The notes under the pieces: model-generated
The model's input: the letters and a program-made list of their open reading frames with translations, nothing else
What the model was told of the DNA's origin: nothing
The model's database searches: none
In this document: positions 24,807 through 37,254 of the stretch, piece by piece
How the letters are laid out: every line of letters starts with the position of its first letter
Position numbering within the stretch: position 1 is the stretch's first letter
NCBI GenBank assembly: GCA_017469275.1
Contig: JAFUGT010000014.1
Location: 2,079-66,078, forward strand
Length of the DNA: 64,000 nucleotides
Source of the DNA: Lachnospiraceae bacterium
GTDB taxonomy: Bacteria > Bacillota > Clostridia > Lachnospirales > Lachnospiraceae
Direction of reading: 5' to 3'
Program-made: the position numbers and the translations under genes

Positions 24807-26459
24807 CTATTTATAATTAATTTTGTACACATTAAACACATATCCTTCCTCAATAAGTTCATAATCACAATCATACCCATAATGTTCCTTATAATATGTA
24901 AGTAAAACATCAAGTGTCTTCTCTTTACTTTGTACAAAAAACACATTATCCTTGAGCACAATATCTTCAAGTACATTTTTAATTCCCTTATCACTCAAGC
25001 TACTTTTATAAGACGGGGAATTACATAACCAATTTCCTGTTGTTATAACATTTCTCATATAACCAGAGGATATAGAAGCATATGGTTTACAAACAAAACA
25101 AGTATTTAGAAAGTCCAACGTGTTGCACACATATATATTATCATTATCATTAGAGAAATATTCGACCGCTACAATCTCATCATTGTTGTAAAAATTATTA
25201 TAATTGAAATCCCGAAAAACTAACACATAATATATTATTAATGATAATAATAGTATTAAAATTGTAGATATATATATTTTCTTTTCTGATATCTTAGGCA
25301 ATAATTTATGAACATCACAATTATCTAATAACATATATATATACGAAACAATTGCCGAAAGCCATATAACATGATTAACCCTCTCAACCACTCTCCCCAT
25401 ATAAATAAATACAGATATATACATTATTGTTACAATTCCAACAAGAACTCCAAATAGTTGTATTTTTTTATTACTATTCCCAATACAACACAACAATAAC
25501 AACAACCATACCCAAAACAATACTCCATTACATTCTTCTACCAATAAAGCCATATCAAAAGCATTTTCATATTCAGCCTTTTGTATAACACTTAAAGACT
25601 TCAATCTATTTGTATCAAACACATTATTATCATCAAAAATCCAATTATCTAACATCAAAATATCATTGTAAGAAAAACCGTTTTCTTGATAGGCACTTAG
25701 ATTTTCCTCATAATCCGGAAACGGATAATCCATAACAAGAGCTCTTACCTCATTATATGAATTATAATCTTTCCAACCAGCATCAGATAAATAGTATAAT
25801 TTATCAAAAGCTGTCAATACAATAGCAAGTATAGCAACGCCTAAAATAGTAAAAATCATTTTTTTAATATCATTTGAAGTATTCATCATTGAATAAACGA
25901 CAATCAATATTGCAAAAGGTAATATCAGATAAATACTGTCAATTCTCAACATTATTCCATAGACAAACAACAAAACACCCATCCATAAATCAAACTTCGA
26001 GTCATTTACGATGAAAGACCACAAACATAAAAAACCTGCTATCATCATAAAACCTGCAGTTCTTGTAAATTGAATACCCCTTATAAAATTGAAAACAAAT
26101 ACAAACCAACTAAGTAAATTAACACAACATGCTAATTTAATATTTCCCTTGATAGCTATTAACTTTACCAGTGCAGATATTGCGATGATAACAAAAACAT
26201 ATTGAAACACCACGTACCAATTAAAAACAGGAATTAAACCAGTAATAAATTTCAATATATAACCTAAAATAACATTTGAAAAAACAAGACATTGTCGATA
26301 ATTATCGCCATAAGCTCCTGCCAGAATACAACCCATACCAAAATCATCATTAGTTTCAAAATATGTTGGGAAAAAAAATTTTAATATGATTACTGTGTAA
26401 AATAAATTTTGAACAAAAAAAATAAAAAAGTATTTCCATTCCTGTTTCTTCATAGCCAA
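24807..26459 (-). CDS. Uncharacterised polytopic membrane protein, candidate GT-C glycosyltransferase
   Basis: 550 aa with about 11 TM helices. An acidic motif follows TM1 (FETNDDFG), as in GT-C first-loop DxD/ExD motifs. There is a mid-protein soluble loop and a C-terminal soluble domain. It is the last gene of the Arn-like operon. The function is inferred, not recognised by homology. Confidence 0.4.
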   Translation of the reverse strand: MAMKKQEWKYFFIFFVQNLFYTVIILKFFFPTYFETNDDFGMGCILAGAYGDNYRQCLVFSNVILGYILKFITGLIPVFNWYVVFQYVFVIIAISALVKLIAIKGNIKLACCVNLLSWFVFVFNFIRGIQFTRTAGFMMIAGFLCLWSFIVNDSKFDLWMGVLLFVYGIMLRIDSIYLILPFAILIVVYSMMNTSNDIKKMIFTILGVAILAIVLTAFDKLYYLSDAGWKDYNSYNEVRALVMDYPFPDYEENLSAYQENGFSYNDILMLDNWIFDDNNVFDTNRLKSLSVIQKAEYENAFDMALLVEECNGVLFWVWLLLLLCCIGNSNKKIQLFGVLVGIVTIMYISVFIYMGRVVERVNHVIWLSAIVSYIYMLLDNCDVHKLLPKISEKKIYISTILILLLSLIIYYVLVFRDFNYNNFYNNDEIVAVEYFSNDNDNIYVCNTLDFLNTCFVCKPYASISSGYMRNVITTGNWLCNSPSYKSSLSDKGIKNVLEDIVLKDNVFFVQSKEKTLDVLLTYYKEHYGYDCDYELIEEGYVFNVYKINYK

Positions 26460-26478
26460 TCTCCATAATATAATATTA

Positions 26479-27615
26479 TCAATCGAAATATTTATTTATC
26501 ACTTCGATTATGTATATTATCTCTTCCTCAGTAAGCCCATAATACATCGGTAGTCTTAATAATCGATCACTTTCTTTAGTAGTATACTTATCATCTCCTG
26601 AAAATCTTCCATACTTTCTTCCCGCTACAGAACTATGAAGCGGAACATAATGAAAGACAGCCAGTATACCATTATCCTTAAGGTATTTCAACAAATTAGT
26701 TCTTTCTTCTAAATCCTTGACCTTTATATAAAACATATGGGCATTATGCTCACATTCATCAGGTATATATGGTAATGATACGTATCCTTTATCTTCAAGT
26801 TCTTTTAATCCACTATAATACATATTCCATGACTTCATCCTATCCTTTTTGATTTCTTCAGCAACCTCCAATTGAGCCCATAGATAAGCAGCGTTAATTT
26901 CGCTTGGAAGAAACGATGAACCCTTGTCAACCCATGTATATTTGTCAACTTGTCCACGAAAGAACTGATTCCGATTAGTCCCTTTTTCTCTTACTATTTC
27001 TGCCATTTCAAGATATTTCTTGTTATTTAGGAAAATTGCTCCGCCTTCTCCCATGCTGTAATTCTTTGTTTCATGAAAACTGTATGCTCCAAAATCGCCT
27101 AAAGTACCTAATGATTTTCCTTTATATGTAGCACACATTCCCTGTGCAGCATCCTCTATTACGTAAAGGTTATGTCGTCTTGCAATATTATTAATCACAT
27201 CCATATCACAACCCACACCTGCGTAATGGACTGGAACAATCGCTTTTGTTCGTTCAGTAATGGCGTCTTCAATAAGTTGCTCATTAATATTCATAGTATC
27301 TGGTCTGATATCAACAAATACACATGTTGCACCGTGTATCACAAAAGCATTAGCTGTAGAAACAAATGTATATGATGGCATGATAACTTCATCGCCCGGA
27401 CTAATCCCGCAAATCAAAGCACACATCTCCAGCGCAGATGTACATGATGTAGTCAATAATACCTTTTTCGCTTCGGTATAATTCTCTAACCATTGCTGAC
27501 ATTTGTTATTAAATTCTCCATCACCGCATATCTTTCCATTCCTTATGGCCTTAGATATGTACTGCTCTTCCATTCCGACATATGGTGGTTTATTAAATGG
27601 TATCATTTTTATCAC
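26479..27615 (-). CDS. DegT/DnrJ/EryC1 aminotransferase, WecE-like (dTDP-4-amino-4,6-dideoxyhexose transaminase)
   Basis: The N-terminus IPFNKPPYVGMEEQYISKAIRNGKICGDGEFNNKCQQWLE parallels E. coli WecE. The PLP-lysine motif SFHETKNY is present. Confidence 0.85.
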   Translation of the reverse strand: MIKMIPFNKPPYVGMEEQYISKAIRNGKICGDGEFNNKCQQWLENYTEAKKVLLTTSCTSALEMCALICGISPGDEVIMPSYTFVSTANAFVIHGATCVFVDIRPDTMNINEQLIEDAITERTKAIVPVHYAGVGCDMDVINNIARRHNLYVIEDAAQGMCATYKGKSLGTLGDFGAYSFHETKNYSMGEGGAIFLNNKKYLEMAEIVREKGTNRNQFFRGQVDKYTWVDKGSSFLPSEINAAYLWAQLEVAEEIKKDRMKSWNMYYSGLKELEDKGYVSLPYIPDECEHNAHMFYIKVKDLEERTNLLKYLKDNGILAVFHYVPLHSSVAGRKYGRFSGDDKYTTKESDRLLRLPMYYGLTEEEIIYIIEVINKYFD

Positions 27616-27627
27616 TCCTACCTAATC

Positions 27628-27978
27628 CTACTTTATACAAGACACACCTATTCCAATTATAATTAAAATAATTCCTAATGCCTTATTCTTTTCTATCTTC
27701 TCATTCACTGTAAAATATCCCAATATTGCAACAAAAATATAGCCCAATGATTCTATAACCGGAGCCATAGAAAGAGGAACTTTTTTGAGGGCAACAACCG
27801 TTAACAATGTGGATGCCAGAAAAATCACATAAGCCGTGATTACATAAGGATTAATATATTCTTTGATAACAGATTCATGTGACTTTTGTGTACTTTTTTT
27901 TAGAAGTACTTGCGCTATGGACGATATAAATACAGAACACACATAAATCAATATATATTTTATCATAGTAATTATCAT
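27628..27978 (-). CDS. Half-size EamA/SMR-like membrane protein (ArnE/ArnF-type flippase subunit candidate)
   Basis: 116 aa with 4 TM helices. It is paired with a second half-size protein next to a polyprenyl-phosphate GT2, as in arnC...arnE-arnF. Confidence 0.55.
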   Translation of the reverse strand: MIITMIKYILIYVCSVFISSIAQVLLKKSTQKSHESVIKEYINPYVITAYVIFLASTLLTVVALKKVPLSMAPVIESLGYIFVAILGYFTVNEKIEKNKALGIILIIIGIGVSCIK

Positions 27979-27991
27979 ACTCCATTATCAT

Positions 27992-28381
27992 CTATTCTTT
28001 ACTTATTGAATCTGAACGTACCACCAGAATAACACCAGCTATTATAATACATATTCCGATTATTTTCCATATAGTTATATGTTCTCGAAAAAACAAAGCC
28101 CCCCACAGCACTGTCCATATCATACATATCGCTTTATTAGAATACACTGTAGTAAGTTGCATTTTTTTCAATAATTGTTGCCATACAATCGCATATAATC
28201 CCATGTTAAAAAGTGAAATCCCATAAAACAACAAAAATCGCATCGACATAAAAGTTTCCTGCGATGCAACTTTGGACGAAGTCGCCAGTAAAGAATTAAA
28301 TAACAAAAAGACATGTAAAATCAAAATATTTCTAATAGATAAATTATGTTCTTTCAATATCGAATTTCCCTTCCGAATCAT
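27992..28381 (-). CDS. Half-size EamA/SMR-like membrane protein (ArnE/ArnF-type flippase subunit candidate)
   Basis: 129 aa with 4 predicted TM helices. Its 5' end overlaps the GT2 gene by 38 nt. Confidence 0.5.
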   Translation of the reverse strand: MIRKGNSILKEHNLSIRNILILHVFLLFNSLLATSSKVASQETFMSMRFLLFYGISLFNMGLYAIVWQQLLKKMQLTTVYSNKAICMIWTVLWGALFFREHITIWKIIGICIIIAGVILVVRSDSISKE

Positions 28382-29321
28382 CTTGTTTTTTATTATGATC
28401 TACCGTTTGTCTAATAACATATTGTGGCTCACGATTTGCACTCATATACAATCTGCCCACATATTCTCCCATCATTCCCAGTACTATCAATATTACTCCA
28501 CATAATACAAGCGTAACCGCCATCATGGAACTCCAACCTTCCACTACATAAGGATTAATTATTTTTTTAATCAAAACAATAATACTATAAATCAAACCGA
28601 CACACGCCGTAATAAAGCCAAAAAGAGTAGATATTCTGAGTGGTTTAATTGAAAATGTAGTGGCCCCGTTTATCCATAAAGAAACTAATTTAGGAAATGT
28701 ATACCCCGAAGACCCAATTTCCCGTTTTCTATGTCCGACAAACACTGAACCCACCTTATCTGTCGCTCTAAAAACAAGACCAGGTAAATATACGTAAGCA
28801 TTTTGATACTCATTCATAGTATCAATAATGTATTTTTTTGCAGCATAAAAACTACTACCCTCAAACTCTTTAGGAATTGACATCAAGTGAACCCCCATCC
28901 ATTTTGCAAACTTTGAACCGAGATTTCGATATAAACTATGCTTTTTATGTCTATATTTACCATAAACCACATCATATCCATTTTTAAGTTCTTCTACCAA
29001 TTTATATGTATCCTCTACTGCAATCTGACCATCATCATCAAGTGATACCACAACATCTCCTTTTGATAGTCTATATCCAGCAAGTAAAGCAGCATGTTGT
29101 CCGAAATTTCTCGTTAAGTCTATTCCAATAATATTATCATTATTATCACATAACTTCACAATAACCTCCCACACCTTGTCAGGAGATGAATCATTAACCA
29201 ATATTATTTCATAATTGTATTCTTGATGTACCTTTTGTATTTCATGTATTTCATCTATCACACCTTCAATTGTATTTTCAGAACCATAACACGGAATAAC
29301 AAATGAAATCATCTTTTTCAT
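28344..29321 (-). CDS. GT2 polyprenyl-phosphate glycosyltransferase (ArnC/GtrB/CsbB-like)
   Basis: FVIPCYGSE..., LVNDSSPD and SLDDDGQ (DxD) motifs, plus two C-terminal TM helices, as in GtrB/ArnC. Confidence 0.85.
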   Translation of the reverse strand: MKKMISFVIPCYGSENTIEGVIDEIHEIQKVHQEYNYEIILVNDSSPDKVWEVIVKLCDNNDNIIGIDLTRNFGQHAALLAGYRLSKGDVVVSLDDDGQIAVEDTYKLVEELKNGYDVVYGKYRHKKHSLYRNLGSKFAKWMGVHLMSIPKEFEGSSFYAAKKYIIDTMNEYQNAYVYLPGLVFRATDKVGSVFVGHRKREIGSSGYTFPKLVSLWINGATTFSIKPLRISTLFGFITACVGLIYSIIVLIKKIINPYVVEGWSSMMAVTLVLCGVILIVLGMMGEYVGRLYMSANREPQYVIRQTVDHNKKQDDSEGKFDIERT

Positions 29322-29327
29322 TATAAA

Positions 29328-29861
29328 TCACTCTCCAATATCATTTAATAAGCGCCTTACCTTACTATTTCCATAATCCAACTCATGCTCATAATATGCA
29401 CAAGCTATTCCGTTTCTATCAATATACGCTTTAGGTTCAAACCCATTTTTTTTATGCATTCTCATTACTTTTTTGTTGTTAAGATAAACCACACAGCATA
29501 CCTTATCCAATTTTAAGATATCACGAGCAAAATCATTAAGCAAAATCTCAGCTTCCATAGTTTCTAATGGATTGCCATAACTAACCTCTCTACCAATCTC
29601 GCCCATTTTTCCATGTATATCATAAACACCAATAAGTCCTATTCTTTCCGCTTTCTTATTAAGTACAACAAAATAATAATCGCCAGGCTGTTGCATCTGC
29701 CACTTTATAAATTCTCGTTGTTGTTCCATAGTGTGCGCCGGCTGTCCGACATAGGCTCTAAACTTTTCATTCATCCTAATATTATAAGAAAACTCCGCAT
29801 CATCTAATGTTATACTTCGCATATCAACAAATTTGCCAATAATCACTTCTTCATAAACCAA
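29328..29861 (-). CDS. GNAT family N-acyltransferase (RimJ/RimL-like)
   Basis: 177 aa with acetyltransferase_3-like motifs (YFVVLNK...RIGLIGVYDI, NKKVMRMHKKNGF). Confidence 0.7.
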   Translation of the reverse strand: MVYEEVIIGKFVDMRSITLDDAEFSYNIRMNEKFRAYVGQPAHTMEQQREFIKWQMQQPGDYYFVVLNKKAERIGLIGVYDIHGKMGEIGREVSYGNPLETMEAEILLNDFARDILKLDKVCCVVYLNNKKVMRMHKKNGFEPKAYIDRNGIACAYYEHELDYGNSKVRRLLNDIGE

Positions 29862-29880: not shown

Positions 29881-30663
29881 TCATCTTTTTATGCAATACA
29901 CTATATCCCAAGTACCATCATGTACCAATCCATATTTCTTATGAAAGCGCAGAGACGCTATGTTATTCTCGCTTACCCAAGCATATACATATCGCCCCCC
30001 ATTTTTATAATATTCCTTAAGTCGTTTTATCATAATTGCATGAATATTTTTTTTATCCCCTTTATTATAAACCTGATTAATATAAAAACTTTTGGGTTTA
30101 ATGTCTGTCTGCAATAATGCATCTATATGATTATCATTACCACGATGAATTAGTATTTCTTTTTTTTCAACTATCCCAGCCAATTCCTTATCATCACAAA
30201 GATGACTTATTGCAGTATCAAACTCTGACCACAGTAATTGATTTATTTCATGAACATCATCATATGTAGCAACAATACCTGCAGAATCATCTTCATACTT
30301 CATTATCGTATAATCATCAAGTATCTTTGAACAATCTCTTGTTGCAACCCTCATCATCTTTGCTAACAATATTTCTCCACTGAACACTTTACTGTACTGA
30401 TTATCATCCATTGTAATAAAATCAATATAAAATGTTCCACTATCTAGATTCGAAAGTATTTTTTTTAAATGAAACTTGTCCTGAACATAAAAAAATAGCC
30501 TGTTAATCCCATTATCGTTACACGAAAACAAAAACGATTCTTCATAATCCCAAATATCATCAGCATTTTCTATAACACTTAACGAATAACAATTAGTAAG
30601 TGGTTTACATATCTTTTTTAAATTATTAATATGAGTGATAATAATATCTTTATTAACCATCAA
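29881..30663 (-). CDS. Two-domain protein with a C-terminal GNAT fold (WecD-like architecture)
   Basis: The C-terminal segment YVYAWVSENNIASLRFHKKYGL is a GNAT motif A/B region. The ~130 aa N-domain is unrecognised. Confidence 0.45.
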   Translation of the reverse strand: MMVNKDIIITHINNLKKICKPLTNCYSLSVIENADDIWDYEESFLFSCNDNGINRLFFYVQDKFHLKKILSNLDSGTFYIDFITMDDNQYSKVFSGEILLAKMMRVATRDCSKILDDYTIMKYEDDSAGIVATYDDVHEINQLLWSEFDTAISHLCDDKELAGIVEKKEILIHRGNDNHIDALLQTDIKPKSFYINQVYNKGDKKNIHAIMIKRLKEYYKNGGRYVYAWVSENNIASLRFHKKYGLVHDGTWDIVYCIKR

Positions 30664-30689: not shown

Positions 30690-31754
30690 CTACAAATCAG
30701 ATTCAATGATTTCACAATTATTTAGGTTACCTATATCCATAAATACAACACCCCACGCTAAACCTGATCCAAATGCAGATAAGCAACAACTGTTATTTTT
30801 ATTAATAAGTTCATCTCTTGCGTTAAATATTGCAGTCATTGGTATAGAAGCACCACTTGGATTACCAAAATTTTCAACAAGATTCATTGGAAACTTGTCA
30901 AAAGGAATGCCTACCTTTTGAGCAAGTTTTTTTAACATAAACTTATTCGGCTGATGAAAAAAGAAATAATCAAAATCTTCAATAGTCTTATGTTCACTGT
31001 CAAAAGCATCCTTTAACATTTTAGAGACATCCGACTGAACAAAATTAAACACTTCACTTCCATCCATGCAAATATTATCTAAAGACCTGTAATTCCCTTC
31101 ACTATCCATTTTAACCTTAGCAGTTTCAATATTACAAGGCATTTTAAATCCACCTGCAGGAATAATTAACGCATTTCTGCGTTTTCCGTCTGTATTCATC
31201 TCAAAATAGATTGGAGATGATTCTGAATTTTCCAATACCGTAATACACGCCGCATCACCTATAAGAGGGTAATCATTTCTATCTCTTCTAGAAACCTTAT
31301 GACTAATAACATCACCATTTACCAACAACACTTTTTTATCAATGTGTTCTAATAACATAAACGATTGCATCAAACCAACCAAAAAACCGCAACACCCCTG
31401 AGCAATATCCAAGCAAATTATATTTTCCCCAAATCCACATTCTGCTTGAATTATATTACTTATGTGTGGGACAAAATAATCCGGACACAATGAAACTACT
31501 ACTATCGCTCCAATTTCATTCCTATTAATCCAATTATTAGCAAACATATAATTAATACCATAAATAGCAAAATCAGAAACAGTCGTACTTTCCTTAGATA
31601 ATCTATGACAATTATAACCCATCACTTTCTTTAGTCTCATAGATTGTTTTTCCGTAAAACTGTAATTGCCAATTTCGTCATCAAAATAACTCTCCATTTC
31701 CGGAAGCAATCCAAGCATCGTAGTTATTTTTTTATTATTAAACCGCATAATCAT
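30690..31754 (-). CDS. KASIII (FabH-like) condensing enzyme or acyltransferase
   Basis: Cys-His-Asn triad in context: IAQGCCGFLVG, FFFHQPNKFM, ENFGNPSGASIP. It overlaps the upstream carrier gene by 4 nt. Confidence 0.8.
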   Translation of the reverse strand: MIMRFNNKKITTMLGLLPEMESYFDDEIGNYSFTEKQSMRLKKVMGYNCHRLSKESTTVSDFAIYGINYMFANNWINRNEIGAIVVVSLCPDYFVPHISNIIQAECGFGENIICLDIAQGCCGFLVGLMQSFMLLEHIDKKVLLVNGDVISHKVSRRDRNDYPLIGDAACITVLENSESSPIYFEMNTDGKRRNALIIPAGGFKMPCNIETAKVKMDSEGNYRSLDNICMDGSEVFNFVQSDVSKMLKDAFDSEHKTIEDFDYFFFHQPNKFMLKKLAQKVGIPFDKFPMNLVENFGNPSGASIPMTAIFNARDELINKNNSCCLSAFGSGLAWGVVFMDIGNLNNCEIIESDL

Positions 31755-31984
31755 TTCGATTCACCTTTTGATTTGATAATTAGTGATTGTATAGAATTCA
31801 AAGAAGTAAAATTCTCAGGTAATATATCTAATCCATCAATCGTTACATTATATTTCTCTTCTAACAAATCACAAAGGTTAATAATATCAAATGAATCCAA
31901 CATTCCATCAGCAATAAAGTCACTACTATCACTAAAATCGAATTCCGGTTTAATCTCAGTTAAAATATCTAAAACATCCTGCAT
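31751..31984 (-). CDS. DltC-like aminoacyl/acyl carrier protein
   Basis: 77 aa. ADGMLDSFDIINLCDLLEEKY...PENFTSLNSIQSLI parallels DltC (EEGLLDSFGTVELLL...). The Ser in LDSF is the predicted phosphopantetheine site. Confidence 0.75.
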   Translation of the reverse strand: MQDVLDILTEIKPEFDFSDSSDFIADGMLDSFDIINLCDLLEEKYNVTIDGLDILPENFTSLNSIQSLIIKSKGESK

Positions 31985-32002: not shown

Positions 32003-33532
32003 TCACATATTATTAATTTTATCTTTTAACAATAGTCTGTCAATTTTTCCATTTGTATTTCTCGGCAATACATCTAATTTAATATATTCTGTTGGTATCA
32101 TATACGAAGGTAATCTTCTCCCTATGTTTTTTCTAAAATCACCAACACTTAATTCATCTTGGTTTTCATAAAACAAAACAATCTCCCGTTTTTCGCTATT
32201 ATAAACGGCACAACAATAATCTACTAATTTCAAGTCATTCTCAACCACATGCTCTATCTCACCTAGCTCTATTCGATATCCCATATGCTTAATTAAACTA
32301 TCTTTTCGCCCCTTAAAAATAATATTTCCATCTTCTCTCAGATATGCTATATCACCCGTACGATAAATCAATTCAGGATACATCGTATTTAAAGGATTTT
32401 GAACAAATGAACTCATAGTCTTCTCTAAATTATTATAATATCCCATGGCTAAAGATGAACCTCGTACACACAATTCACCCTCTTCTCCTATGTGACAAAT
32501 ATTATTATTATCATTTAATATCATAATATCAGTATTTTTATATGGAATACCGATCGGTAATGGTTCATTCTCATCGGGTCGTTCTTTCACAATATAATAT
32601 GTACAATCCAAAGTTATTTCTATGGGCCCGTACAAATTAACAAAAACAGCAGCAGGCAACTTATCATACCACATAGTAAATTGTTTTGTTGGAAACACTT
32701 CGCCCGCAAACCAAACTAATCTTAGATTTGGTAATTCCATTTTATCTAATAAACCTAAATTAGCTATATTTACCATAATAGACGGTACCCAGAAAATAAA
32801 ATTAACATTATTCTTAACTAAACACTCTAGTAATCTAGCTGGAAACGCAGCCAAAAAAGCATCAAGTAGTATCAATTCCGAAGCATTTCTCATCATCATA
32901 CATAATTCAAATTCAAAAATATCAAATACCACAGGTGAAAGCGAACCTATTATTTCACTACCGTCAAAATTAAAAAGTTCTCCCGAAGCATTCATGAAAT
33001 CTATAAAACTCCTATGATTGAGAACGACACCTTTTGGTGTTCCTGTTGAGCCCGATGTATTAATTATACAAAACGGATCAGTATCAATTAACCTACTTCT
33101 CTTTTTTAACAATACTTCGTCATCTATAATAACATTATGCAATTCTATTTCATCTATTATAACTAATGGAATACTTAGACCGGTTAAATTAGCTACATAA
33201 GCGGAACTGGTAACAATCACCATCGGCTTTACTGTTTTCAAAATGTTGTTAATTCTTTCAATCGGAGTTTTTACATCCAAATTAACAAAATGATTTGATG
33301 AATACATGATACCTAAATCCGCAATCACTATATTTATTTCTTTAGGAAGAAAAACCGCTATAGGAATATTTACAGAATCTTTAAACATTGCAGATAAATA
33401 AGTTCCCAGTTTCATTGAATAGTTTTTTAATTCTTTAAAATCAATTTTTGTATCGTTATGTCTCACAGCAATTTTATCAGCATTATGATTTACAGTTGTT
33501 TCAAAATACTCTAATAGATTAATTATATTCAT
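32003..33532 (-). CDS. Adenylate-forming enzyme (DltA/NRPS A-domain-like)
   Basis: Core motifs IINTSGSTGTPKGV, YRTGDIAYLREDGNIIFKGRKDSLIKHMGYRIELGEIE and NGKIDR. Confidence 0.85.
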   Translation of the reverse strand: MNIINLLEYFETTVNHNADKIAVRHNDTKIDFKELKNYSMKLGTYLSAMFKDSVNIPIAVFLPKEINIVIADLGIMYSSNHFVNLDVKTPIERINNILKTVKPMVIVTSSAYVANLTGLSIPLVIIDEIELHNVIIDDEVLLKKRSRLIDTDPFCIINTSGSTGTPKGVVLNHRSFIDFMNASGELFNFDGSEIIGSLSPVVFDIFEFELCMMMRNASELILLDAFLAAFPARLLECLVKNNVNFIFWVPSIMVNIANLGLLDKMELPNLRLVWFAGEVFPTKQFTMWYDKLPAAVFVNLYGPIEITLDCTYYIVKERPDENEPLPIGIPYKNTDIMILNDNNNICHIGEEGELCVRGSSLAMGYYNNLEKTMSSFVQNPLNTMYPELIYRTGDIAYLREDGNIIFKGRKDSLIKHMGYRIELGEIEHVVENDLKLVDYCCAVYNSEKREIVLFYENQDELSVGDFRKNIGRRLPSYMIPTEYIKLDVLPRNTNGKIDRLLLKDKINNM

Positions 33533-33576: not shown

Positions 33577-34314
33577 TTATCTTTCCGTAATATCTATTGT
33601 CCGTCCCCCGTCAATAGTAATTTGTTGTCCTGTAATCCACCTTGCTTTATCAGATAACAAGAACTCTACAATTGGAGCAATATCGCTAGGTTTCCCAATC
33701 CCCAAAGGATAGTCATTTTCAAATTTCTGTAGCATCTCGGGATTTTCAAACAGTTCTTTTGTCATCTCTGTAATCATACCACCAGGAAGAACAGAATTAA
33801 CTCTCACCCCTGGTGCTAGTTCGACAGCCAAACTACGCATCAATCCATCTAAAGCAGCTTTAGATGAACTATACATAGAAAATGCCGCAGCTCCCCTATT
33901 ACTTATATTACTTGAAATAAAAACAACCGATTTTAAATTACCATTATTAATTTTCTTTGAACATAAACACTTTGTTATTATAGCAGGAGCATAAACATTA
34001 ACCGCGAATATTTTTTGCAAATCGTTTATTTTAATATTCCTCAACGGAAGAATTTTCATAACACCTGCACAATGAACAAAATAATCTACACTAATATTAT
34101 TAACTTTAAGAAATATCTTTAAATCGTTTTCGAGGTTATCAAAATCATTCAGTTCATGATTCCAGATAAAAGGATTATTATCACAAAGAAGTCTGACTTC
34201 TTGTAATCTTTTTTCATCTCTTCCACTTAGAATTATGGTATGTTCCTTAGATAAACTAATTGCTAACTCTCTCCCTACACCTGATGAAGCACCTGTTAAT
34301 AGTAAAAAACCCAT
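33577..34314 (-). CDS. SDR family oxidoreductase
   Basis: LLTGASSGVGRE (TGxxxGxG) and YSSSKAALDG (YxxxK). Confidence 0.85.
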   Translation of the reverse strand: MGFLLLTGASSGVGRELAISLSKEHTIILSGRDEKRLQEVRLLCDNNPFIWNHELNDFDNLENDLKIFLKVNNISVDYFVHCAGVMKILPLRNIKINDLQKIFAVNVYAPAIITKCLCSKKINNGNLKSVVFISSNISNRGAAAFSMYSSSKAALDGLMRSLAVELAPGVRVNSVLPGGMITEMTKELFENPEMLQKFENDYPLGIGKPSDIAPIVEFLLSDKARWITGQQITIDGGRTIDITER

Positions 34315-34349
34315 AAATAGTCCTCCTCGACATATTAATAAACGTAAAG

Positions 34350-35135
34350 TTATTGAGCAGTATACCCACCATCAATGTTAAATACCGCACCTGTGGTCCA
34401 CTTCGAAGCATCTGACAATAAAAAAACCACTGCATTGGCTATATCCAACGCTTCTCCCCAGCCTAACGGATGCATGCGCTCAATTATGTCAGCATAATTA
34501 TTATCGAATAACAAATTAACATTATCTGCCATATTAGTTTTAATAAAACCAGGTGCAACACAATTAACTCTAATTTTTTTATTCGCTAATTCTATAGCTA
34601 AAGATTTTGTCATACCTACAATAGCCGCTTTACTCATAGCGTATGCTACATTCGCAGAAGACCCAACAAGTCCATACACCGAAGATATGAATACAATCGA
34701 ACCTTGCTTACTCATGTCATGTCCTTTTTTCCCAGCAAAAATTTTGGCCAAATTCAATCCTGCTTGAGAATTAATTCGCATAACCTTTTCATAATGATCA
34801 TTGGAAATAGTTCTTAACGGAGATATAGATGGAATTCCTGCACAATGAACCAATCCGGTATATACACTATTTAATTTTTCTCTTGAATCAATAATAATTT
34901 TTTTTACTAATTCAAAATCATTCAAATCAACAACTGCACATACTATTTTATTATTTGAATTCTCTAATTCTTTCTCGAGAGAATTCAATCCGCTCTCATC
35001 TATATCCAACAATAACAAATTTGCCCCTAACTTATAAAGTAATACCGCTGTTTCCCTACCAATTCCAGAAGCTGCACCCGTTACTATTACAGTTTTATCG
35101 TACATCGACATAGGATTTATCATACTATTTTCCAA
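34350..35135 (-). CDS. SDR family oxidoreductase (FabG-like ketoreductase)
   Basis: VTGAASGIGRE, YAMSKAAIVGMTKSLAIELA and a FabG-like C-terminus (GGYTAQ). Confidence 0.85.
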   Translation of the reverse strand: MENSMINPMSMYDKTVIVTGAASGIGRETAVLLYKLGANLLLLDIDESGLNSLEKELENSNNKIVCAVVDLNDFELVKKIIIDSREKLNSVYTGLVHCAGIPSISPLRTISNDHYEKVMRINSQAGLNLAKIFAGKKGHDMSKQGSIVFISSVYGLVGSSANVAYAMSKAAIVGMTKSLAIELANKKIRVNCVAPGFIKTNMADNVNLLFDNNYADIIERMHPLGWGEALDIANAVVFLLSDASKWTTGAVFNIDGGYTAQ

Positions 35136-35138
35136 TTA

Positions 35139-35360
35139 TCACTTCTCCATCAATTCAAGAATATCTTTAACATATACAAAACTTTTTATTTGATCACCTG
35201 AAATCTTCTTTCCAAATTCATCATCAAACATGACGATCAATGAAAGTTTTGTCATTGAATCATACTCTTCAATTTCCTCCAATTTCATATCAGGGTTTAA
35301 GCTACCTTCATCAGTTTCAAACGTTTCCTCCAGTAATTCAAGTTTTTCTTTTTCTGTCAT
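35139..35360 (-). CDS. Acyl carrier protein
   Basis: 73 aa acidic helical protein with an EEYDSMTKLSLI (DSx) phosphopantetheine motif. Confidence 0.75.
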   Translation of the reverse strand: MTEKEKLELLEETFETDEGSLNPDMKLEEIEEYDSMTKLSLIVMFDDEFGKKISGDQIKSFVYVKDILELMEK

Positions 35361-35408
35361 ATTTTTTCTCCTTTTTTTATATTTACTTTAAATGAGTTCT
35401 TTTCTCAT

Positions 35409-36461
35409 CTAATAGTCATCTTCATAATACTCGTCAGTTTTTATAAGTGGATATACATTATCAACGTTCATATAACAATCAACTGCACACCAAGATAAAC
35501 CAATACCATATCCACAAAGCATAAAATGTGATACTCCATTATTTACAAGTGCCAATTTTTCAACCAGAGAAACAGGAATTGATGCAGAAGAAGTATTCGC
35601 AAACTTATCAATTGCTTTTATACTTTTATCAGAAGAAAAGCCTGTTTTCTTCTCAATCTGAGACATAATCAGCTTATTAGATTGATGTAACACAAGATAA
35701 TCATAATCTTCGGCAGTGCAACCCATTTTACCCATTAATTCATTTATTAATACAGGAACCTCATTTGTCGAAAAATTAAAAACCGCTATATCATCAGTAA
35801 TATCAATATCTGCACTTTTATATGGATTCCTATAAAAACCCCATGGAGCGATTAATGCATTATATCGACTTCCATCTGTCTTATACATAAAGTTAATATT
35901 TTTAGCCATAATATCTTTTTTTAGTAACGTAGCACTACCCGCATCTCCAAATAACAATTTACCTGTATTAAATTCTATACTATCAGTTGGGATTTTATCC
36001 CTAGACGCAGTCTCACCACACATCAACAAGCCATATTGCGCTTTAGATTCCATCATTATACTTCCCACTATATTAAGTCCGCATACATATCCCGAACAAC
36101 CCAAATTGACATCAAACGCAATACAATCCTCACCTATACCTAATCTGTATTGAAGAACTGTTGCCGTAGATGGCTTTCTATAATCTGAAGTCTGCGTCAC
36201 ATATACAATGACCCCTATGCTGTTTTTGTCAATCTTTTTATCCTCAATAATCTTTTTAGCAGCGGCATAACACCAATCCGAATTAACCTGATTATAAGTT
36301 GATACAAAACGTCCCTCAACTCCAGTATTTTTGGTAAATTTCTTTATAATTTTTCTATTAGCATCACTTGTATTACCAAATTGATCAGCCAACGAAAGCC
36401 ATCTGTCTGGTACGGCTGCAGAAACCGCTTCTATGCTAATTCCCCTAATACACGATTCCAT
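35409..36461 (-). CDS. KASIII (FabH-like) condensing enzyme
   Basis: Triad in context: DVNLGCSGYVCG, LVLHQSNKLI, KFANTSSASIP. Confidence 0.8.
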   Translation of the reverse strand: MESCIRGISIEAVSAAVPDRWLSLADQFGNTSDANRKIIKKFTKNTGVEGRFVSTYNQVNSDWCYAAAKKIIEDKKIDKNSIGVIVYVTQTSDYRKPSTATVLQYRLGIGEDCIAFDVNLGCSGYVCGLNIVGSIMMESKAQYGLLMCGETASRDKIPTDSIEFNTGKLLFGDAGSATLLKKDIMAKNINFMYKTDGSRYNALIAPWGFYRNPYKSADIDITDDIAVFNFSTNEVPVLINELMGKMGCTAEDYDYLVLHQSNKLIMSQIEKKTGFSSDKSIKAIDKFANTSSASIPVSLVEKLALVNNGVSHFMLCGYGIGLSWCAVDCYMNVDNVYPLIKTDEYYEDDY

Positions 36462-36492
36462 GATCTATTCCTTCCATTCAAAATATTTATAT

Positions 36493-37254
36493 TTAACAAG
36501 ATGTAGAAAAACCTCCATCTACAGGCATTGTTACACCTGTAATCATTCTAGCCTCTTCTGACAATAAAAATGTAATTGCATATGCCACATCTTTAGGTTC
36601 TATAATACCCAAATATTGTCTATTCGATAAAGAACTGTCAGATTCTTCTTCGTAACCATTCATTTTCAAATAATCAATATACATTTGCGTTTTAACCATA
36701 GACGGTGCCACTGAGTTTAAGTAAACATGCTTATTTGACAATTCCTTTGCCATGCATCTAACGGATGCATCCATTGCTGCTTTAGAAGCCGAATATGCAA
36801 TATGAGCTTTATCGCCAAACCTAGCAGCATTAGAAGAAACCGCTACAATTCGCAAGCCATCATTATACATATTTTTCATTGTAACTTGGCGAACACATTC
36901 AACAAACCCAAAATAATTTGTTGTAAATGTATCTAATAACCGCTTATTATTTAAATATTTCAGGGGAACATCTCCATCCGAAATACCTGCTGTATAAACC
37001 ATGCCGTCTAATTTTCCTTGTTCAGATACAATAGTTTTTATCATAGAATTAATTCCATCAATATCTGAAACGTCAAAAACATAACATGCTTTTTTATGAG
37101 AATTAATTTTTTCGATTACATTATGCAATTTTTCTTTACGTCTAGCGACCAATATAACATTTGCGCCTTGTATAGACGTAGTATAGGCTACCTCTTCTCC
37201 GATCCCCGAAGACGCACCTATAATCAATATATTCTTCCCAGATAAATCTATCAT
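36493..37254 (-). CDS. SDR family oxidoreductase
   Basis: IIGASSGIGEE and YSASKAAMDASVRCMAKEL. It is the first gene of the operon. Confidence 0.85.
   Translation of the reverse strand: MIDLSGKNILIIGASSGIGEEVAYTTSIQGANVILVARRKEKLHNVIEKINSHKKACYVFDVSDIDGINSMIKTIVSEQGKLDGMVYTAGISDGDVPLKYLNNKRLLDTFTTNYFGFVECVRQVTMKNMYNDGLRIVAVSSNAARFGDKAHIAYSASKAAMDASVRCMAKELSNKHVYLNSVAPSMVKTQMYIDYLKMNGYEEESDSSLSNRQYLGIIEPKDVAYAITFLLSEEARMITGVTMPVDGGFSTSC

What the first reader, a model, noticed from the sequence alone, without database searches (positions are those of the whole stretch)
24807..37254. 15-gene operon joining a carrier-protein acyl-assembly line to an Arn/Gtr-type polyprenyl-phosphate aminosugar pathway in a Gram-positive-type genome
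Seen: fifteen co-directional genes have gaps of at most 48 nt or overlap each other (37254 down to 24807). In order they are SDR, KASIII, ACP, SDR, SDR, DltA-like adenylating enzyme, DltC-like carrier, KASIII, two-domain GNAT, GNAT, ArnC/GtrB-like GT2 with C-terminal TM helices, two half-size EamA/SMR-like proteins, a WecE-like sugar 4-transaminase (PLP motif SFHETKNY), and a 550-aa polytopic membrane protein.

Established knowledge: WecE makes dTDP-4-amino-4,6-dideoxygalactose. ArnC plus ArnE/F plus ArnT load an N-acylated aminosugar onto undecaprenyl phosphate, flip it, and transfer it outside the membrane. Firmicutes use the analogous GT-A/flippase/GT-C logic (CsbB-GtcA-YfhO, GtlA-GtlB) to decorate teichoic acids.

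Inference: this operon builds a dTDP-4-amino-dideoxyhexose and N-acylates it with a custom hydroxy- or amino-acyl chain made on dedicated carrier proteins. It then parks the product on a polyprenyl phosphate, flips it, and attaches it to an extracytoplasmic acceptor such as LTA, WTA, S-layer or pilin. I know of no characterised system with this full combination in Firmicutes. The nearest analogies I recall are the ACP/ligase-dependent N-acylations of perosamine or Qui4N in Gram-negative O-antigens.
Basis: partly seen in the sequence, partly recalled or inferred. Interest (0 to 1): 0.85.

Follow-up and report, generated by a model that had tools for sequence, protein, structure and literature searches.

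The report
Acylated aminosugar surface-decoration gene island
A rumen Lachnospiraceae genome carries a strain-variable gene island that most likely builds an unusual acylated aminosugar, loads it on a membrane lipid carrier and attaches it to a cell-surface molecule. The set of genes has not been characterised, but it is assembled from known kinds of parts.

Summary

Tools added four things:
- The 260-aa protein with no Pfam match is a tandem GNAT resembling VipF and WecD.
- The 550-aa membrane protein weakly resembles GT-C transferases (STT3, ArnT).
- A YfhO gene (21477-24119) belongs to the same low-GC island. An IS110 remnant separates it from the operon.
- The organism is a ruminant-gut Lachnospiraceae MAG.

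Fourteen or fifteen of the genes recur together, in a different order, in other rumen/gut Clostridia. Sub-cassettes also occur in Fibrobacter and Synergistaceae. A near-identical sister strain has a different glycan island at the same site and lacks the acyl line, so this is a hypervariable surface-glycan locus.

Best explanation: dTDP-4-amino-4,6-dideoxyhexose made by WecE is N-acylated with a chain built on two carrier proteins. An ArnC-like GT2 transfers it to undecaprenyl phosphate, an ArnE/F-like pair flips it, and the GT-C-like protein and/or YfhO attach it outside the cell.

The acyl chemistry and the acceptor remain inferred. Gram-negative precedents exist (Pseudomonas syringae viosamine island, Flavobacterium psychrophilum wfpC-G). 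It is a new variant of known kinds and moderately interesting.

The parts
36493..37254 (-). g01 SDR / ketoacyl reductase-like
   Evidence: adh_short_C2 154 bits and FabG-like NCBIfam hits below the equivalog cut-offs. Homologs of 58-61% identity lie in colinear clusters L014 and L022-L025.
35409..36461 (-). g02 KASIII-a (FabH-like condensing enzyme)
   Evidence: ACP_syn_III plus ACP_syn_III_C. Cys/His/Asn motifs are visible in the translation. 60-62% identity in L014 and L022-L025.
35139..35360 (-). g03 acyl carrier protein (73 aa)
   Evidence: PP-binding 19.3 bits (cut-off 20.8) and NCBIfam ACP PRK05350 E 1.7e-7. DSM serine motif.
34350..35135 (-). g04 SDR
   Evidence: adh_short_C2 177 bits, FabG-like. 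Travels as a pair with g05 directly upstream of the A gene in L011, L014, L015 and L022-L025.
33577..34314 (-). g05 SDR
   Evidence: adh_short_C2 133 bits. 57-64% identity in related loci.
32003..33532 (-). g06 stand-alone NRPS-type adenylating enzyme
   Evidence: AMP-binding 182 bits and TIGR01733 amino-acid adenylation 291 bits. Below the DltA cut-offs. PDB relatives are NRPS A domains and DltA. Specificity code DIFFWALL(C/D)K retains Asp235 and Lys517 and is invariant in 17 loci.
31751..31984 (-). g07 aminoacyl/peptidyl-type carrier protein (77 aa)
   Evidence: PP-binding 18.9 bits (cut-off 20.8), LDSFD serine motif. Its last 4 nt overlap the start of g08.
30690..31754 (-). g08 KASIII-b, always preceded by the A gene and the carrier gene
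   Evidence: ACP_syn_III plus ACP_syn_III_C. Cys/His/Asn motifs align to PDB 4efi. 59-69% identity in all related loci, always downstream of A and CP wherever the upstream sequence is present. 2429 homologs at E<1e-30.
29881..30663 (-). g09 tandem-GNAT acyltransferase (family without a Pfam model)
   Evidence: No Pfam or NCBIfam hit. AF2 pLDDT 94. Foldseek finds VipF, WecD (TDP-fucosamine acetyltransferase, E 1.5e-8), MshD and other tandem GNATs. 751 representatives at E<=1e-3. One homolog, P0014, is fused to an EamA half-transporter.
29328..29861 (-). g10 single-domain GNAT resembling sugar N-acyltransferases
   Evidence: Acetyltransf_3 51 bits, weak PseH hit, best PDB match FdhC 5kta at E 1.8e-5. 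Homologs of 50-57% identity lie with GT2 and EamA, and mostly with WecE, in L011, L012, L021, L022, L024 and L025.
28344..29321 (-). g11 ArnC/GtrB-type polyprenyl-phosphate glycosyltransferase (GT2)
   Evidence: Glycos_transf_2 97 bits. NCBIfam ArnC E 6e-51 and PgfS E 3e-44, both below cut-off. Full-length alignment to ArnC structures 9bhc/8vxh (145 bits), then GtrB 5ekp. DDD motif and two C-terminal TM helices.
27992..28381 (-). g12 half-size EamA/DMT protein (ArnE/F-like flippase subunit)
   Evidence: EamA 39.6 bits above cut-off. ArnE E 4e-6 and ArnF E 3.5e-4. About 4 TM helices. The likely true start is 28357 (gene call).
27628..27978 (-). g13 half-size EamA/DMT protein (ArnE/F-like flippase subunit)
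   Evidence: EamA 39 bits. ArnE E 4e-8 and ArnF E 4e-7. 4 TM helices.
26479..27615 (-). g14 WecE, dTDP-4-keto-6-deoxy-D-glucose 4-aminotransferase
   Evidence: TIGR02379 638 bits (cut-off 435) and NF008687 631 bits (cut-off 375). 529 bits to E. coli WecE 4piw, with the PLP lysine motif identical.
24807..26459 (-). g15 polytopic membrane protein, probably a GT-C-type transferase
   Evidence: No Pfam hit. About 11-13 TM helices. Invariant DD38-39 just after the first TM helix. AF2 pLDDT 81. The only Foldseek hits with probability above 0.9 are STT3A (E 3e-3, TM 0.43) and ArnT (E 0.028, TM 0.39). Homologs sit next to WecE or YfhO in L011, L012, L024, L026 and L027.
24293..24619 (+). IS110-family transposase remnant that interrupts the island
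   Evidence: DEDD_Tnp_IS110 partial match, profile positions 48-134 of 155. In sister strain L026 the g15 and YfhO homologs are only 37 nt apart.
   Evidence: YfhO 355 bits full length. PgfM2/PgfM1 NCBIfam hits are far below cut-off. Low GC like the operon. Adjacent to the g15 homolog in L026 and separated from it by one gene in L027.

Best explanation
This is a strain-variable island of about 16 kb (21477-37254) in a rumen Lachnospiraceae genome. It most likely decorates a cell-surface molecule with an N-acylated 4-amino-4,6-dideoxyhexose delivered on a lipid carrier.

Proposed steps:
1. WecE converts dTDP-4-keto-6-deoxyglucose, supplied from elsewhere in the genome, into dTDP-Fuc4N or dTDP-Qui4N. 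The enzyme identity is shown by family membership.
2. A custom acyl chain is built on two dedicated carrier proteins (inferred). The adenylating enzyme g06 loads a small alpha-amino acid onto carrier g07. KASIII-b (g08) condenses that aminoacyl thioester with malonyl-ACP (g03). SDRs reduce the keto group to give a gamma-amino-beta-hydroxyacyl chain. KASIII-a and the extra SDRs either extend the chain once more or make a 3-hydroxybutanoyl cap.
3. The two GNAT-type enzymes, tandem-GNAT g09 and FdhC/PseH-like g10, move the acyl group(s) onto the sugar amine and/or cap the chain amine. Which enzyme does which step is not resolved.
4. The ArnC-like GT2 g11 transfers the acylated sugar to undecaprenyl phosphate.
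5. The ArnE/F-like pair g12/g13 flips it across the membrane.
6. The GT-C-like g15 and/or YfhO g16 attach it to an extracytoplasmic acceptor (teichoic acid, wall polysaccharide or surface protein; unknown).
For: Enzyme identities:
- WecE scores above the equivalog cut-offs and 529 bits to E. coli WecE.
- The GT2 aligns along its full length to ArnC structures and has two C-terminal TM helices.
- The best named hits of the EamA halves are ArnE and ArnF.
- g15 gives confident fold hits only to GT-C enzymes and has an invariant DD just after the first TM helix.
- YfhO scores 355 bits.

Linkage between the acyl line and the sugar genes:
- L022, L024 and L025 carry homologs of g01-g14 at 35-71% identity in a different gene order. 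L024 also has a g15 homolog.
- Fibrobacter loci L011 and L012 and Eubacterium loci L016 and L021 combine the A-CP-KASIII-tandem-GNAT cassette with GT2 and the EamA pair; WecE accompanies them in L012, L016 and L021.
- One tandem-GNAT homolog is fused to an EamA half-transporter.

Acyl chemistry:
- A, CP, KASIII-b and g09 are invariably adjacent, and the CP and KASIII-b genes overlap by 4 nt.
- Relatives in which KASIII-b is the only condensing enzyme (L004-L007) also encode an extra ACP, an SDR and a carboxyltransferase. L006/L007, and L003 (which has a second KASIII), also encode a malonyl-CoA:ACP transacylase. This points to a malonyl-dependent Claisen condensation.
- The KASIII-b triad is intact.
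- The A-domain code keeps Asp235 and Lys517, is lined by Phe, Phe and Trp, and is invariant in 17 loci.

Surface-glycan role:
- Sister strain L026 has flanking genes 90-99% identical but a different island at the same place. That island has WecE at 88%, the EamA pair at 76-81%, GT2 at 45%, g15 at 50% and YfhO at 59%. It also carries FdtA and a second DegT, and it has no acyl line.
- The island is about 30% GC against about 40% in the flanks, and it contains an IS110 remnant.

Precedents for ACP/KAS/KR-built N-acyl groups on 4-aminosugars: PMC3927599 and PMC6519341.
Against: - No biochemical or structural data exist for any of these proteins or for the glycan.
- No rmlA or rmlB lies in the 64-kb window, so the dTDP-sugar supply is unverified.
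- I know of no ArnC/GtrB-type GT2 shown to use a dTDP-sugar donor (my knowledge, not tested).
- The g15 fold matches are weak (TM about 0.4).
- Gamma-amino-beta-hydroxyacyl groups are not, to my knowledge, known substituents of bacterial glycans. In contrast, N-(3-hydroxybutanoyl)-aminoacyl groups are known, which favours the first rival for the acyl chemistry.
- The amino acid could not be assigned from the specificity code.
- Most relatives have an MBL-fold gene after the tandem GNAT that this window lacks.
- Co-transcription is not shown, and the terminator and promoter scans were uninformative.
Confidence: 0.65

Rival explanations
1. The overall logic is the same (acylated Fuc4N/Qui4N delivered through undecaprenyl phosphate), but the acyl group is a peptidyl-amido type, for example N-(3-hydroxybutanoyl)-aminoacyl. 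The KASIII enzymes only make 3-hydroxybutanoyl-ACP from acetyl-CoA and malonyl-ACP, as VioS, ACP and VioR do. The amino acid held on carrier g07 is joined through amide bonds by the two GNAT-type enzymes. One enzyme acylates the aminoacyl amine, and the other transfers the product to the sugar amine.
For: - The g02-g03 pair with an SDR mirrors the vioS/acp/vioR module that gives N-(3-hydroxybutanoyl)viosamine.
- Two N-acyltransferases are always present: g09 plus either g10 or an AAC(3)-like enzyme.
- The best solved relative of g10 is FdhC, a GNAT sugar N-acyltransferase. From memory, FdhC uses 3-hydroxybutanoyl-CoA.
- From memory, N-(3-hydroxybutanoyl)-alanyl and related groups are known substituents of 3- and 4-amino-dideoxyhexoses in O-antigens.
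Against: - It does not explain why KASIII-b is always next to the A and carrier genes, translationally coupled to the carrier gene, and far more conserved (59-69%) than KASIII-a-type genes in the minimal-type loci (32-36%).
- It does not explain the need for two KASIII and three SDR enzymes in the window.
Confidence: 0.22
2. KASIII-b is not a condensing enzyme but a KASIII-like acyltransferase of the CerJ/ChlB6 type. It moves the aminoacyl group from carrier g07 onto a hydroxyl of the hydroxyacyl chain or of the sugar, giving an aminoacyl ester comparable to D-alanyl esters on teichoic acids.
For: - KASIII-like acyltransferases that take acyl groups from discrete carrier proteins to sugar hydroxyls are known (my knowledge).
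- The A enzyme and carrier resemble DltA and DltC at superfamily level.
- Relatives L004 and L005 carry an MBOAT (the DltB superfamily) two genes downstream of the cassette.
Against: - The full Cys-His-Asn triad needed for decarboxylative condensation is kept.
- Relatives carry malonyl-supply genes (transacylase, carboxyltransferase) although KASIII-b is their only KAS.
- No MBOAT or DltD is present in the window.
Confidence: 0.08
3. The acyl line (g01-g10) and the sugar/lipid-carrier genes (g11-g16) are two unrelated cassettes that merely sit side by side in a recombination hot spot. The acyl line makes a separate small molecule or lipid.
For: - The sister strain keeps the sugar/lipid-carrier genes without the acyl line.
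- The A-CP-KASIII-GNAT cassette also occurs beside other sugar pathways, namely NeuB in L003 and a hexose 2,3-dehydratase in L023.
Against: - In every context seen, the cassette lies among aminosugar or glycosyltransferase genes.
- WecE, GT2 and the EamA pair co-occur with it in L012, L016, L021, L022, L024 and L025, which span different phyla and gene orders.
- A tandem-GNAT-EamA fusion exists.
- Both GNATs resemble nucleotide-sugar N-acyltransferases.
- No release or export functions typical of small-molecule clusters are present.
Confidence: 0.05

Closest known systems
Viosamine islands of Pseudomonas syringae pv. tabaci (vioA, vioS, acp, vioR, vioB, vioM, vioT) and P. aeruginosa PAK (PMC3927599)
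   Same: A dTDP-4-keto-6-deoxyglucose 4-aminotransferase is clustered with a KASIII, a dedicated ACP, a ketoacyl reductase and an N-acyltransferase. Together they make an N-(3-hydroxybutanoyl)-4-amino-4,6-dideoxyhexose for a surface structure.
   Different: - No adenylating enzyme, second carrier, second KASIII or tandem GNAT is listed for the P. syringae island.
- The acyltransferase is VioB-type rather than a GNAT.
- The sugar is transferred directly from the nucleotide to flagellin glycan by VioT in the cytoplasm, not through undecaprenyl phosphate, a flippase and a GT-C.
- The host is Gram-negative.
Flavobacterium psychrophilum O-polysaccharide genes wfpC-wfpG (PMC6519341)
   Same: Two different ketoacyl-ACP synthases, a dedicated ACP, a ketoacyl-ACP reductase and an acyltransferase are proposed to build an N-3,5-dihydroxyhexanoyl group on a 4-aminosugar. 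This matches the two-KAS, multi-reductase layout found here.
   Different: - The sugar is UDP-Qui2NAc4N.
- The acyltransferase is PglD-like.
- There is no amino-acid activation.
- The sugar enters a Wzy-type O-antigen repeat unit.
Arn pathway (ArnB, ArnA, ArnC, ArnD, ArnE/F, ArnT) of Gram-negative bacteria
   Same: The same order of operations applies. A 4-aminosugar nucleotide is N-acylated and moved to undecaprenyl phosphate by an ArnC-type GT2. A pair of 4-TM proteins flips it, and a GT-C transfers it outside the cell. ArnC structures are the best solved relatives of g11.
   Different: - The sugar is a dTDP-6-deoxyhexose made by a WecE equivalog, not UDP-Ara4N.
- The acyl group is a custom chain rather than formyl.
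- No ArnA or ArnD is present.
- The acceptor cannot be lipid A in a Firmicute.
- All Arn NCBIfam scores lie far below the equivalog cut-offs.
Gram-positive three-component glycosylation systems (CsbB-GtcA-YfhO, GtlA-GtlB, S. mutans PgfS/PgfM1/PgfM2)
   Same: A GT2 makes a polyprenyl-phosphate sugar that is flipped and used by a YfhO-type GT-C on teichoic acids or surface proteins. YfhO is present, and its best named NCBIfam hits are PgfM2 and PgfM1. Reviews are listed (PMC8035078, PMC5836110).
   Different: - The flippase is an EamA/ArnE-F-type pair instead of GtrA/GtcA.
- From my knowledge, the characterised systems carry plain Glc, Gal or GlcNAc. Here the sugar is an acylated 4-amino-4,6-dideoxyhexose.
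- An extra GT-C-like protein (g15) is present.
ECA Fuc4NAc branch (WecE-WecD) and, from memory, the Bacillus anthracis anthrose operon antABCD
   Same: WecE is an equivalog. The tandem GNAT g09 resembles WecD in fold. From memory, anthrose is a Firmicute 4-amino-4,6-dideoxyhexose N-acylated with a hydroxyacyl group.
   Different: - WecD uses acetyl-CoA.
- No WecF-type transferase is present.
- From memory, anthrose uses a CoA-linked acyl donor and cytoplasmic glycosyltransferases.
Adenylating enzyme - discrete carrier - KASIII priming, e.g. PtmS/PtmI/PtmK in pactamycin (from memory; gene list only in PMC13402214)
   Same: A stand-alone adenylate-forming enzyme loads an amino-substituted acid on a discrete carrier protein. 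A KASIII then extends it with malonyl-ACP.
   Different: - That pathway makes an actinomycete secondary metabolite.
- Its substrate is 3-aminobenzoate.
- It has no link to surface glycans.

Membership tests
Arn (Ara4N) lipid-linked aminosugar pathway | ArnC-type GT2 with C-terminal membrane helices that makes an undecaprenyl-phosphate sugar | tested here: met
   Full-length alignment to ArnC structures (145 bits, E 3e-41) and two C-terminal TM helices. The NCBIfam ArnC score of 173 against a cut-off of 529 shows it is not an ArnC ortholog.
Arn (Ara4N) lipid-linked aminosugar pathway | ArnB aminotransferase acting on a UDP-4-keto-pentose, plus ArnA decarboxylase/formyltransferase | tested here: not met
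   The aminotransferase is a WecE equivalog (638 and 631 bits above cut-off; ArnB 199 bits against a cut-off of 631). No ArnA-like domain appears in any of the 16 proteins.
Arn (Ara4N) lipid-linked aminosugar pathway | ArnE/ArnF pair of small 4-TM flippase subunits | tested here: inconclusive
   Two adjacent half-size EamA proteins score above the Pfam cut-off, and their best named NCBIfam hits are ArnE and ArnF (E 4e-8 to 3.5e-4), far below the cut-offs of 92 and 99 bits. Each has about 4 TM helices.
Arn (Ara4N) lipid-linked aminosugar pathway | ArnT GT-C transferase and ArnD deacylase | tested here: inconclusive
   g15 matches STT3A and ArnT with Foldseek probability 1.00 and 0.97, but TM is only 0.39-0.43. 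No Polysacc_deac_1 (ArnD-type) gene is in the window. One lies at the edge of relative L003.
Gram-positive GT2 / flippase / YfhO three-component glycosylation | YfhO-family GT-C encoded with a polyprenyl-phosphate GT2 | tested here: met
   YfhO 355 bits full length at 21477-24119. It belongs to the same low-GC island. It lies 37 nt downstream of the g15 homolog in L026 and one gene away from it in L027.
Gram-positive GT2 / flippase / YfhO three-component glycosylation | GtrA/GtcA-family flippase | tested here: not met
   No GtrA-family hit. The candidate flippase is an EamA pair.
ECA Fuc4NAc branch (WecE/WecD/WecF) | WecE dTDP-4-keto-6-deoxyglucose transaminase | tested here: met
   NCBIfam TIGR02379 and NF008687 score above cut-off. 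529 bits to E. coli WecE, with the PLP lysine motif conserved.
ECA Fuc4NAc branch (WecE/WecD/WecF) | WecD acetyltransferase and WecF Fuc4NAc transferase | tested here: not met
   g09 resembles WecD only in fold (Foldseek E 1.5e-8, TM 0.49-0.56, 13% identity). No WecF-type family hit was returned for any island protein.
ACP-dependent N-acyl aminosugar cassettes (viosamine island, wfpC-G) | Sugar 4-aminotransferase co-located with KASIII, a dedicated ACP, a ketoreductase and an N-acyltransferase | tested here: met
   g14, g02/g08, g03, g01/g04/g05 and g09/g10. The precedents are described.
ACP-dependent N-acyl aminosugar cassettes (viosamine island, wfpC-G) | Left-handed beta-helix (VioB/PglD-type) acyltransferase and direct use of the nucleotide sugar by a cytoplasmic glycosyltransferase | tested here: not met
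   Both acyltransferases are of GNAT fold. The only glycosyltransferases are an ArnC-type GT2 and GT-C-type proteins.
Dlt D-alanylation system | DltA and DltC equivalogs together with DltB (MBOAT) and DltD | tested here: not met
   DltA models score 264 and 243 bits against cut-offs of 476 and 560. DltC hits have E about 2e-4 against a cut-off of 68 bits. No MBOAT or DltD is in the window.
NRPS-type amino-acid adenylation enzymes | Core motifs, with Asp235 and Lys517 of the specificity code retained | tested here: met
   TIGR01733 scores 291 bits, just under its cut-off of 317. The code is DIFFWALL(C/D)K with Asp235 and Lys517. The GrsA reference sequence was recalled from memory and checked against its known code DAWTIAAICK.

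The most novel reading that the evidence does not exclude
The invariant four-gene cassette consists of a stand-alone A domain, a carrier protein, KASIII-b and a tandem GNAT from a family without a Pfam model. In the most novel reading it is a previously undescribed, horizontally mobile route in which a KASIII is primed by an aminoacyl-carrier protein. The product would be a gamma-amino-beta-hydroxyacyl (statine/GABOB-like) chain installed on aminosugars. In this genome the chain would end up on an undecaprenyl-phosphate-linked Fuc4N/Qui4N and then on the cell surface. That would be a new class of glycan substituent and a new acyl-carrier-protein-dependent sugar N-acyltransferase family in gut and rumen anaerobes.
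Probability: 0.35. Interest if true: 0.7.

Novelty: new variant of a known kind. Interest (0 to 1): 0.55.

Why it matters
Surface glycans of gut and rumen Clostridia are almost unexplored, yet they shape phage susceptibility, immune recognition and strain competition. This locus shows a serotype-like, hypervariable glycan site in Lachnospiraceae. It also shows a portable acyl-assembly cassette that crosses phyla (Clostridia, Fibrobacter, Synergistaceae).

If the proposed chemistry holds, three things follow:
- An amino-acid-primed KASIII step and a new tandem-GNAT acyltransferase family would be added to glycan biosynthesis.
- The ArnC / ArnE-F / GT-C delivery logic would be extended to dTDP-derived, heavily acylated 6-deoxyhexoses in Gram-positive bacteria.
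- The cassette could be used to engineer N-acyl diversity on aminosugars.

Tried and rejected
- The promoter and terminator consensus scans over 21-38.5 kb gave counts at the shuffle expectation. They say nothing about operon boundaries.
- The word-indexed homolog search for the tandem GNAT returned only 22 clusters, which suggested extreme rarity. Full HMMER found 751 representatives, so the rarity claim was dropped.
- Assigning the A-domain substrate from the Stachelhaus code failed. DIFFWALL(C/D)K matched no code I could recall. Only 'small alpha-amino acid' is inferred, and position 331 is ambiguous (C or D) because of a one-residue indel.
- The very high PDB score to LgrA (340 bits) at first suggested glycine specificity. 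It is the sum of two A-domain matches in one chain and is not informative.
- I wanted to check whether the P. aeruginosa PAK glycosylation island also has an adenylating enzyme and a second carrier. Neither paper (PMC55422, PMC387798) is held. The FdhC paper (PMC5095703) is also not held.
- Literature searches found no characterised equivalent. I searched for amino-acid-primed KASIII chemistry, for ACP-dependent N-acyl aminosugars in O-antigens and for Arn-like systems in Firmicutes. The library covers only open-access papers.
- A target hypothesis (type IV pilin) arose because L023 places the cluster directly upstream of pilus genes and the window has the same pilus genes about 16 kb away. 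I rejected it as unsupported, because the adjacency is not conserved in the other loci.
- A search for rmlA and rmlB among all window ORFs of at least 150 aa found none. The rest of the genome could not be examined.

Full report
**1. Observation**

The fifteen minus-strand ORFs from 37254 down to 24807 are real.

Pfam and NCBIfam confirm the domain series. In gene order it is:
- SDR
- KASIII
- ACP
- SDR
- SDR
- NRPS-type adenylating enzyme
- carrier protein
- KASIII
- a 260-aa protein with no family hit
- GNAT (Acetyltransf_3)
- GT2
- two half-size EamA proteins
- DegT/WecE aminotransferase
- a 550-aa membrane protein with no family hit

Catalytic motifs are intact:
- SDR glycine-rich and YxxxK motifs, and the carrier-protein serines.
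- Cys/His/Asn in both KASIII proteins.
- The A-domain core motifs with Asp235 and Lys517.
- The DDD motif of the GT2.
- The PLP lysine of WecE.

Co-directionality is not significant by itself, because nearly all genes in the window are on the minus strand. The promoter and terminator scans were at chance level. The evidence that this is one unit comes from spacing and from comparative genomics.

**2. What the two unannotated proteins are**

The 260-aa protein (g09) gave a high-confidence AlphaFold model (pLDDT 94). Foldseek matched it to tandem-GNAT acyltransferases. These include Legionella VipF, E. coli WecD (TDP-fucosamine acetyltransferase, the enzyme that follows WecE in ECA synthesis, E 1.5e-8), MshD and the clavulanate tandem GNAT. 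The family has no Pfam model. It has 751 representatives at E<=1e-3 among 1.84 billion representative proteins.

The 550-aa protein (g15) has about 11-13 TM helices. It has an invariant Asp-Asp at residues 38-39, just after the first TM helix. Its model has pLDDT 81. The only Foldseek hits with probability above 0.9 are the GT-C enzymes STT3A and ArnT, but the TM-scores are only about 0.4. It is probably a GT-C transferase, but this is not proven.

**3. Surroundings**

- The organism is a Lachnospiraceae MAG from a ruminant-gut data set. This follows from the NCBI name of g15 and the metagenome source of the contig. Sporulation genes in the window fit a Firmicute.
- The operon sits directly downstream of hrcA-grpE-dnaK-dnaJ-prmA-rsmE.
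- Downstream of g15 lies a truncated IS110 transposase fragment on the opposite strand (24293-24619). An intact 880-aa YfhO GT-C gene follows (21477-24119, 355 bits).
- The stretch from about 22 to 36 kb has 29-34% GC. The flanks have 36-43%.
- No rmlA or rmlB is in the window.

**4. Comparative genomics**

*Same position in other samples.* The exact cluster, or its first genes after rsmE, occurs in three metagenome samples.

*A sister strain with a different island.* L026 has flanking genes at 90-99% identity (ThiI 99%, RNase J 99.5%). It carries a different island at the same site. Its gene order is GT2, methyltransferase, EamA, EamA, YfhO, WecE (88%), FdtA, GT2, GNAT, DegT, g15 homolog (50%), YfhO (59%), IscS. 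It has no acyl-assembly genes. Three conclusions follow:
- The site is a hypervariable, serotype-like glycan locus.
- g15 and YfhO are normally adjacent (37 nt apart in L026), so YfhO belongs to the unit and the IS110 remnant split it off.
- The acyl line is an accessory module added to a WecE / GT2 / EamA / GT-C core.

*The whole gene set recurs elsewhere.* Loci L022, L024 and L025, from other rumen/gut Clostridia, contain homologs of g01-g14 at 35-71% identity in a different order. There, WecE-EamA-EamA come first and GT2 plus GNAT are on the opposite strand. An MBL-fold gene is added. L024 also has a g15 homolog and a full IS110 transposase.

*A smaller cassette is more widespread.* The four genes A, CP, KASIII-b and tandem GNAT are invariably contiguous wherever the contig extends far enough upstream. 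Loci L010 and L019 are cut at the contig end. The cassette sits in sugar-gene neighbourhoods in loci drawn from several sources:
- MAGs of Lachnospiraceae, Dorea, Eubacterium, Clostridium, Huintestinicola, Fibrobacter and Synergistaceae
- unclassified metagenome contigs

The accompanying sugar genes vary:
- WecE, GT2 and the EamA pair in L012, L016 and L021
- NeuB in L003
- a hexose 2,3-dehydratase in L023

*A gene fusion.* One tandem-GNAT homolog is fused to an EamA half-transporter.

**5. Mechanism**

Steps supported by family membership:
- g14 is a WecE equivalog, 529 bits to E. coli WecE. The sugar is therefore a dTDP-4-amino-4,6-dideoxyhexose.
- The best solved relatives of g11 are ArnC and then GtrB, aligned over the full length including the membrane helices.
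- The best named hits of g12 and g13 are ArnE and ArnF.
- g16 is YfhO.

The layout thus follows the Arn order of operations: aminate, N-acylate, transfer to undecaprenyl phosphate, flip, transfer outside. It uses a different sugar, a different acyl group and necessarily a different acceptor.

The acyl chemistry is inferred:
- The A domain keeps Asp235 and Lys517, the alpha-amino and carboxylate anchors. Its pocket is lined by Phe, Phe and Trp, and the code DIFFWALL(C/D)K is invariant across 17 loci. This suggests one small alpha-amino acid.
- The carrier gene overlaps KASIII-b by 4 nt.
- KASIII-b retains the decarboxylative triad.
- In relatives where KASIII-b is the only condensing enzyme, the cluster still carries an extra ACP, an SDR and a carboxyltransferase. 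Some also carry a malonyl-CoA:ACP transacylase.

The simplest reading is that KASIII-b extends an aminoacyl-carrier thioester with malonyl-ACP and an SDR reduces the product. The result would be a gamma-amino-beta-hydroxyacyl chain. The window's extra KASIII-a and SDRs then either add a second C2 unit or make a 3-hydroxybutanoyl cap. The first option parallels F. psychrophilum wfpC/E for 3,5-dihydroxyhexanoyl. The second parallels vioS/acp/vioR.

The two GNAT-type enzymes place the acyl groups. g09 is WecD-like in fold. The best PDB hit of g10 is the sugar N-acyltransferase FdhC, and it has a weak PseH match. g09 co-varies with the acyl cassette, and g10 co-varies with the GT2, EamA and WecE genes. 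Their exact roles are unresolved.

**6. Rivals**

- An amide-linked N-(hydroxyacyl)-aminoacyl group. This chemistry is known in O-antigens (my knowledge) and fits the gene content almost as well. It does not explain the strict coupling of the A, carrier and KASIII-b genes.
- KASIII-b acting as an acyltransferase that makes aminoacyl esters. The intact triad and the malonyl-supply genes in relatives argue against it.
- Two unrelated cassettes lying side by side. Repeated co-occurrence in rearranged form across phyla, and the GNAT-EamA fusion, argue against it.

**7. Comparison with known systems**

The locus is not a member of the Arn pathway. The aminotransferase is WecE, ArnA and ArnD are absent, and all Arn model scores are far below their cut-offs. 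It is not a Dlt system, because the DltA and DltC scores are below cut-off and DltB and DltD are missing. It is not the ECA pathway, because WecF is absent and WecD similarity is limited to fold.

It works like a combination of two known kinds:
- ACP-dependent N-acyl aminosugar cassettes of Gram-negative bacteria (viosamine island, wfpC-G).
- The GT2 / flippase / GT-C extracytoplasmic glycosylation systems known in Gram-positive bacteria (CsbB-GtcA-YfhO, Pgf), here with an Arn-type flippase pair.

The new elements are the amino-acid-activating A-CP-KASIII-tandem-GNAT cassette and the delivery of a dTDP-derived acylated 6-deoxyhexose through a polyprenyl phosphate. I found no characterised equivalent in the accessible literature.

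**8. Verdict**

- Novelty: a new variant of known kinds.
- Interest: 0.55. A glycobiologist would find the cassette and the hypervariable Lachnospiraceae locus worth testing. However, each functional block has clear precedents, and the product and acceptor remain hypothetical.

Noticed in passing
window 24293-24619 (+), within the 687-nt gap 24120-24806: A truncated IS110-family transposase fragment sits between the GT-C-like gene and YfhO. In sister strain L026 these two genes are 37 nt apart. L024 has a full-length IS110 transposase beside its version of the cluster.
   Followed up: partly
window 22760 (inside YfhO, 21477-24119): The window and the ENA contig L001 differ at 8 positions over 21.5 kb. 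The difference at 22760 lies inside YfhO. The gene is intact (880 aa) in the window but is called as two genes (453 and 410 aa) in L001, presumably because of this base. This could be population heterogeneity, an on/off variant or an assembly error.
   Followed up: partly
window 41370-41424 (dnaK): Five of the eight window-versus-L001 mismatches cluster within 55 nt of dnaK. This suggests a local assembly or strain-mixture artefact.
   Followed up: no
window 49041-49508 and 49512-50330: SpoIIP is split into two adjacent ORFs that cover profile positions 139-268 and 20-133. It is either a frameshift or stop pseudogene, or a sequencing error in the MAG.
   Followed up: no
window 322-8960; L023 14182-21068: The window has a type IV pilus gene set: two T2SSE ATPases, T2SSF, a prepilin peptidase and PilM/PilN. 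In Lachnospiraceae RUG12564 (L023), the homologous acyl/aminosugar cluster lies immediately upstream of the same pilus gene order. Pilin glycosylation is a possible but untested target.
   Followed up: partly
window 9027-10514: A BspA-type leucine-rich-repeat protein carrying DUF6273. It is a candidate glycosylated surface protein, but nothing links it to the island.
   Followed up: no
L008, L012, L015, L021 (A-domain genes): A second class of adenylating enzyme (41-44% identity, code DNLFLALVCK) replaces the main class in L008, L012 and L021. It accompanies the main class in L015, which has two A genes. The cassette may therefore use different amino acids in different genomes.
   Followed up: partly
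L004/L005 11509-14413: In these relatives an MBOAT (DltB superfamily) gene and a 490-aa unknown gene lie downstream of the cassette, separated from the tandem GNAT by an MBL-fold gene. This hints that some versions export the carrier-bound acyl group in a Dlt-like way.
   Followed up: no
L003-L007, L016-L018, L020 (gene between the SDR and the A gene): Minimal versions of the cassette carry an AAC(3)-type (Antibiotic_NAT) acetyltransferase where the window has two SDRs. This is annotated in L003-L007 and inferred from an equivalent gap in L016-L018 and L020. Most relatives also have an MBL-fold hydrolase after the tandem GNAT that the window lacks.
   Followed up: partly
P0014 (389 aa, metagenomic): A natural fusion of a tandem-GNAT (g09) homolog with a g12-like EamA half-transporter.
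   Followed up: partly
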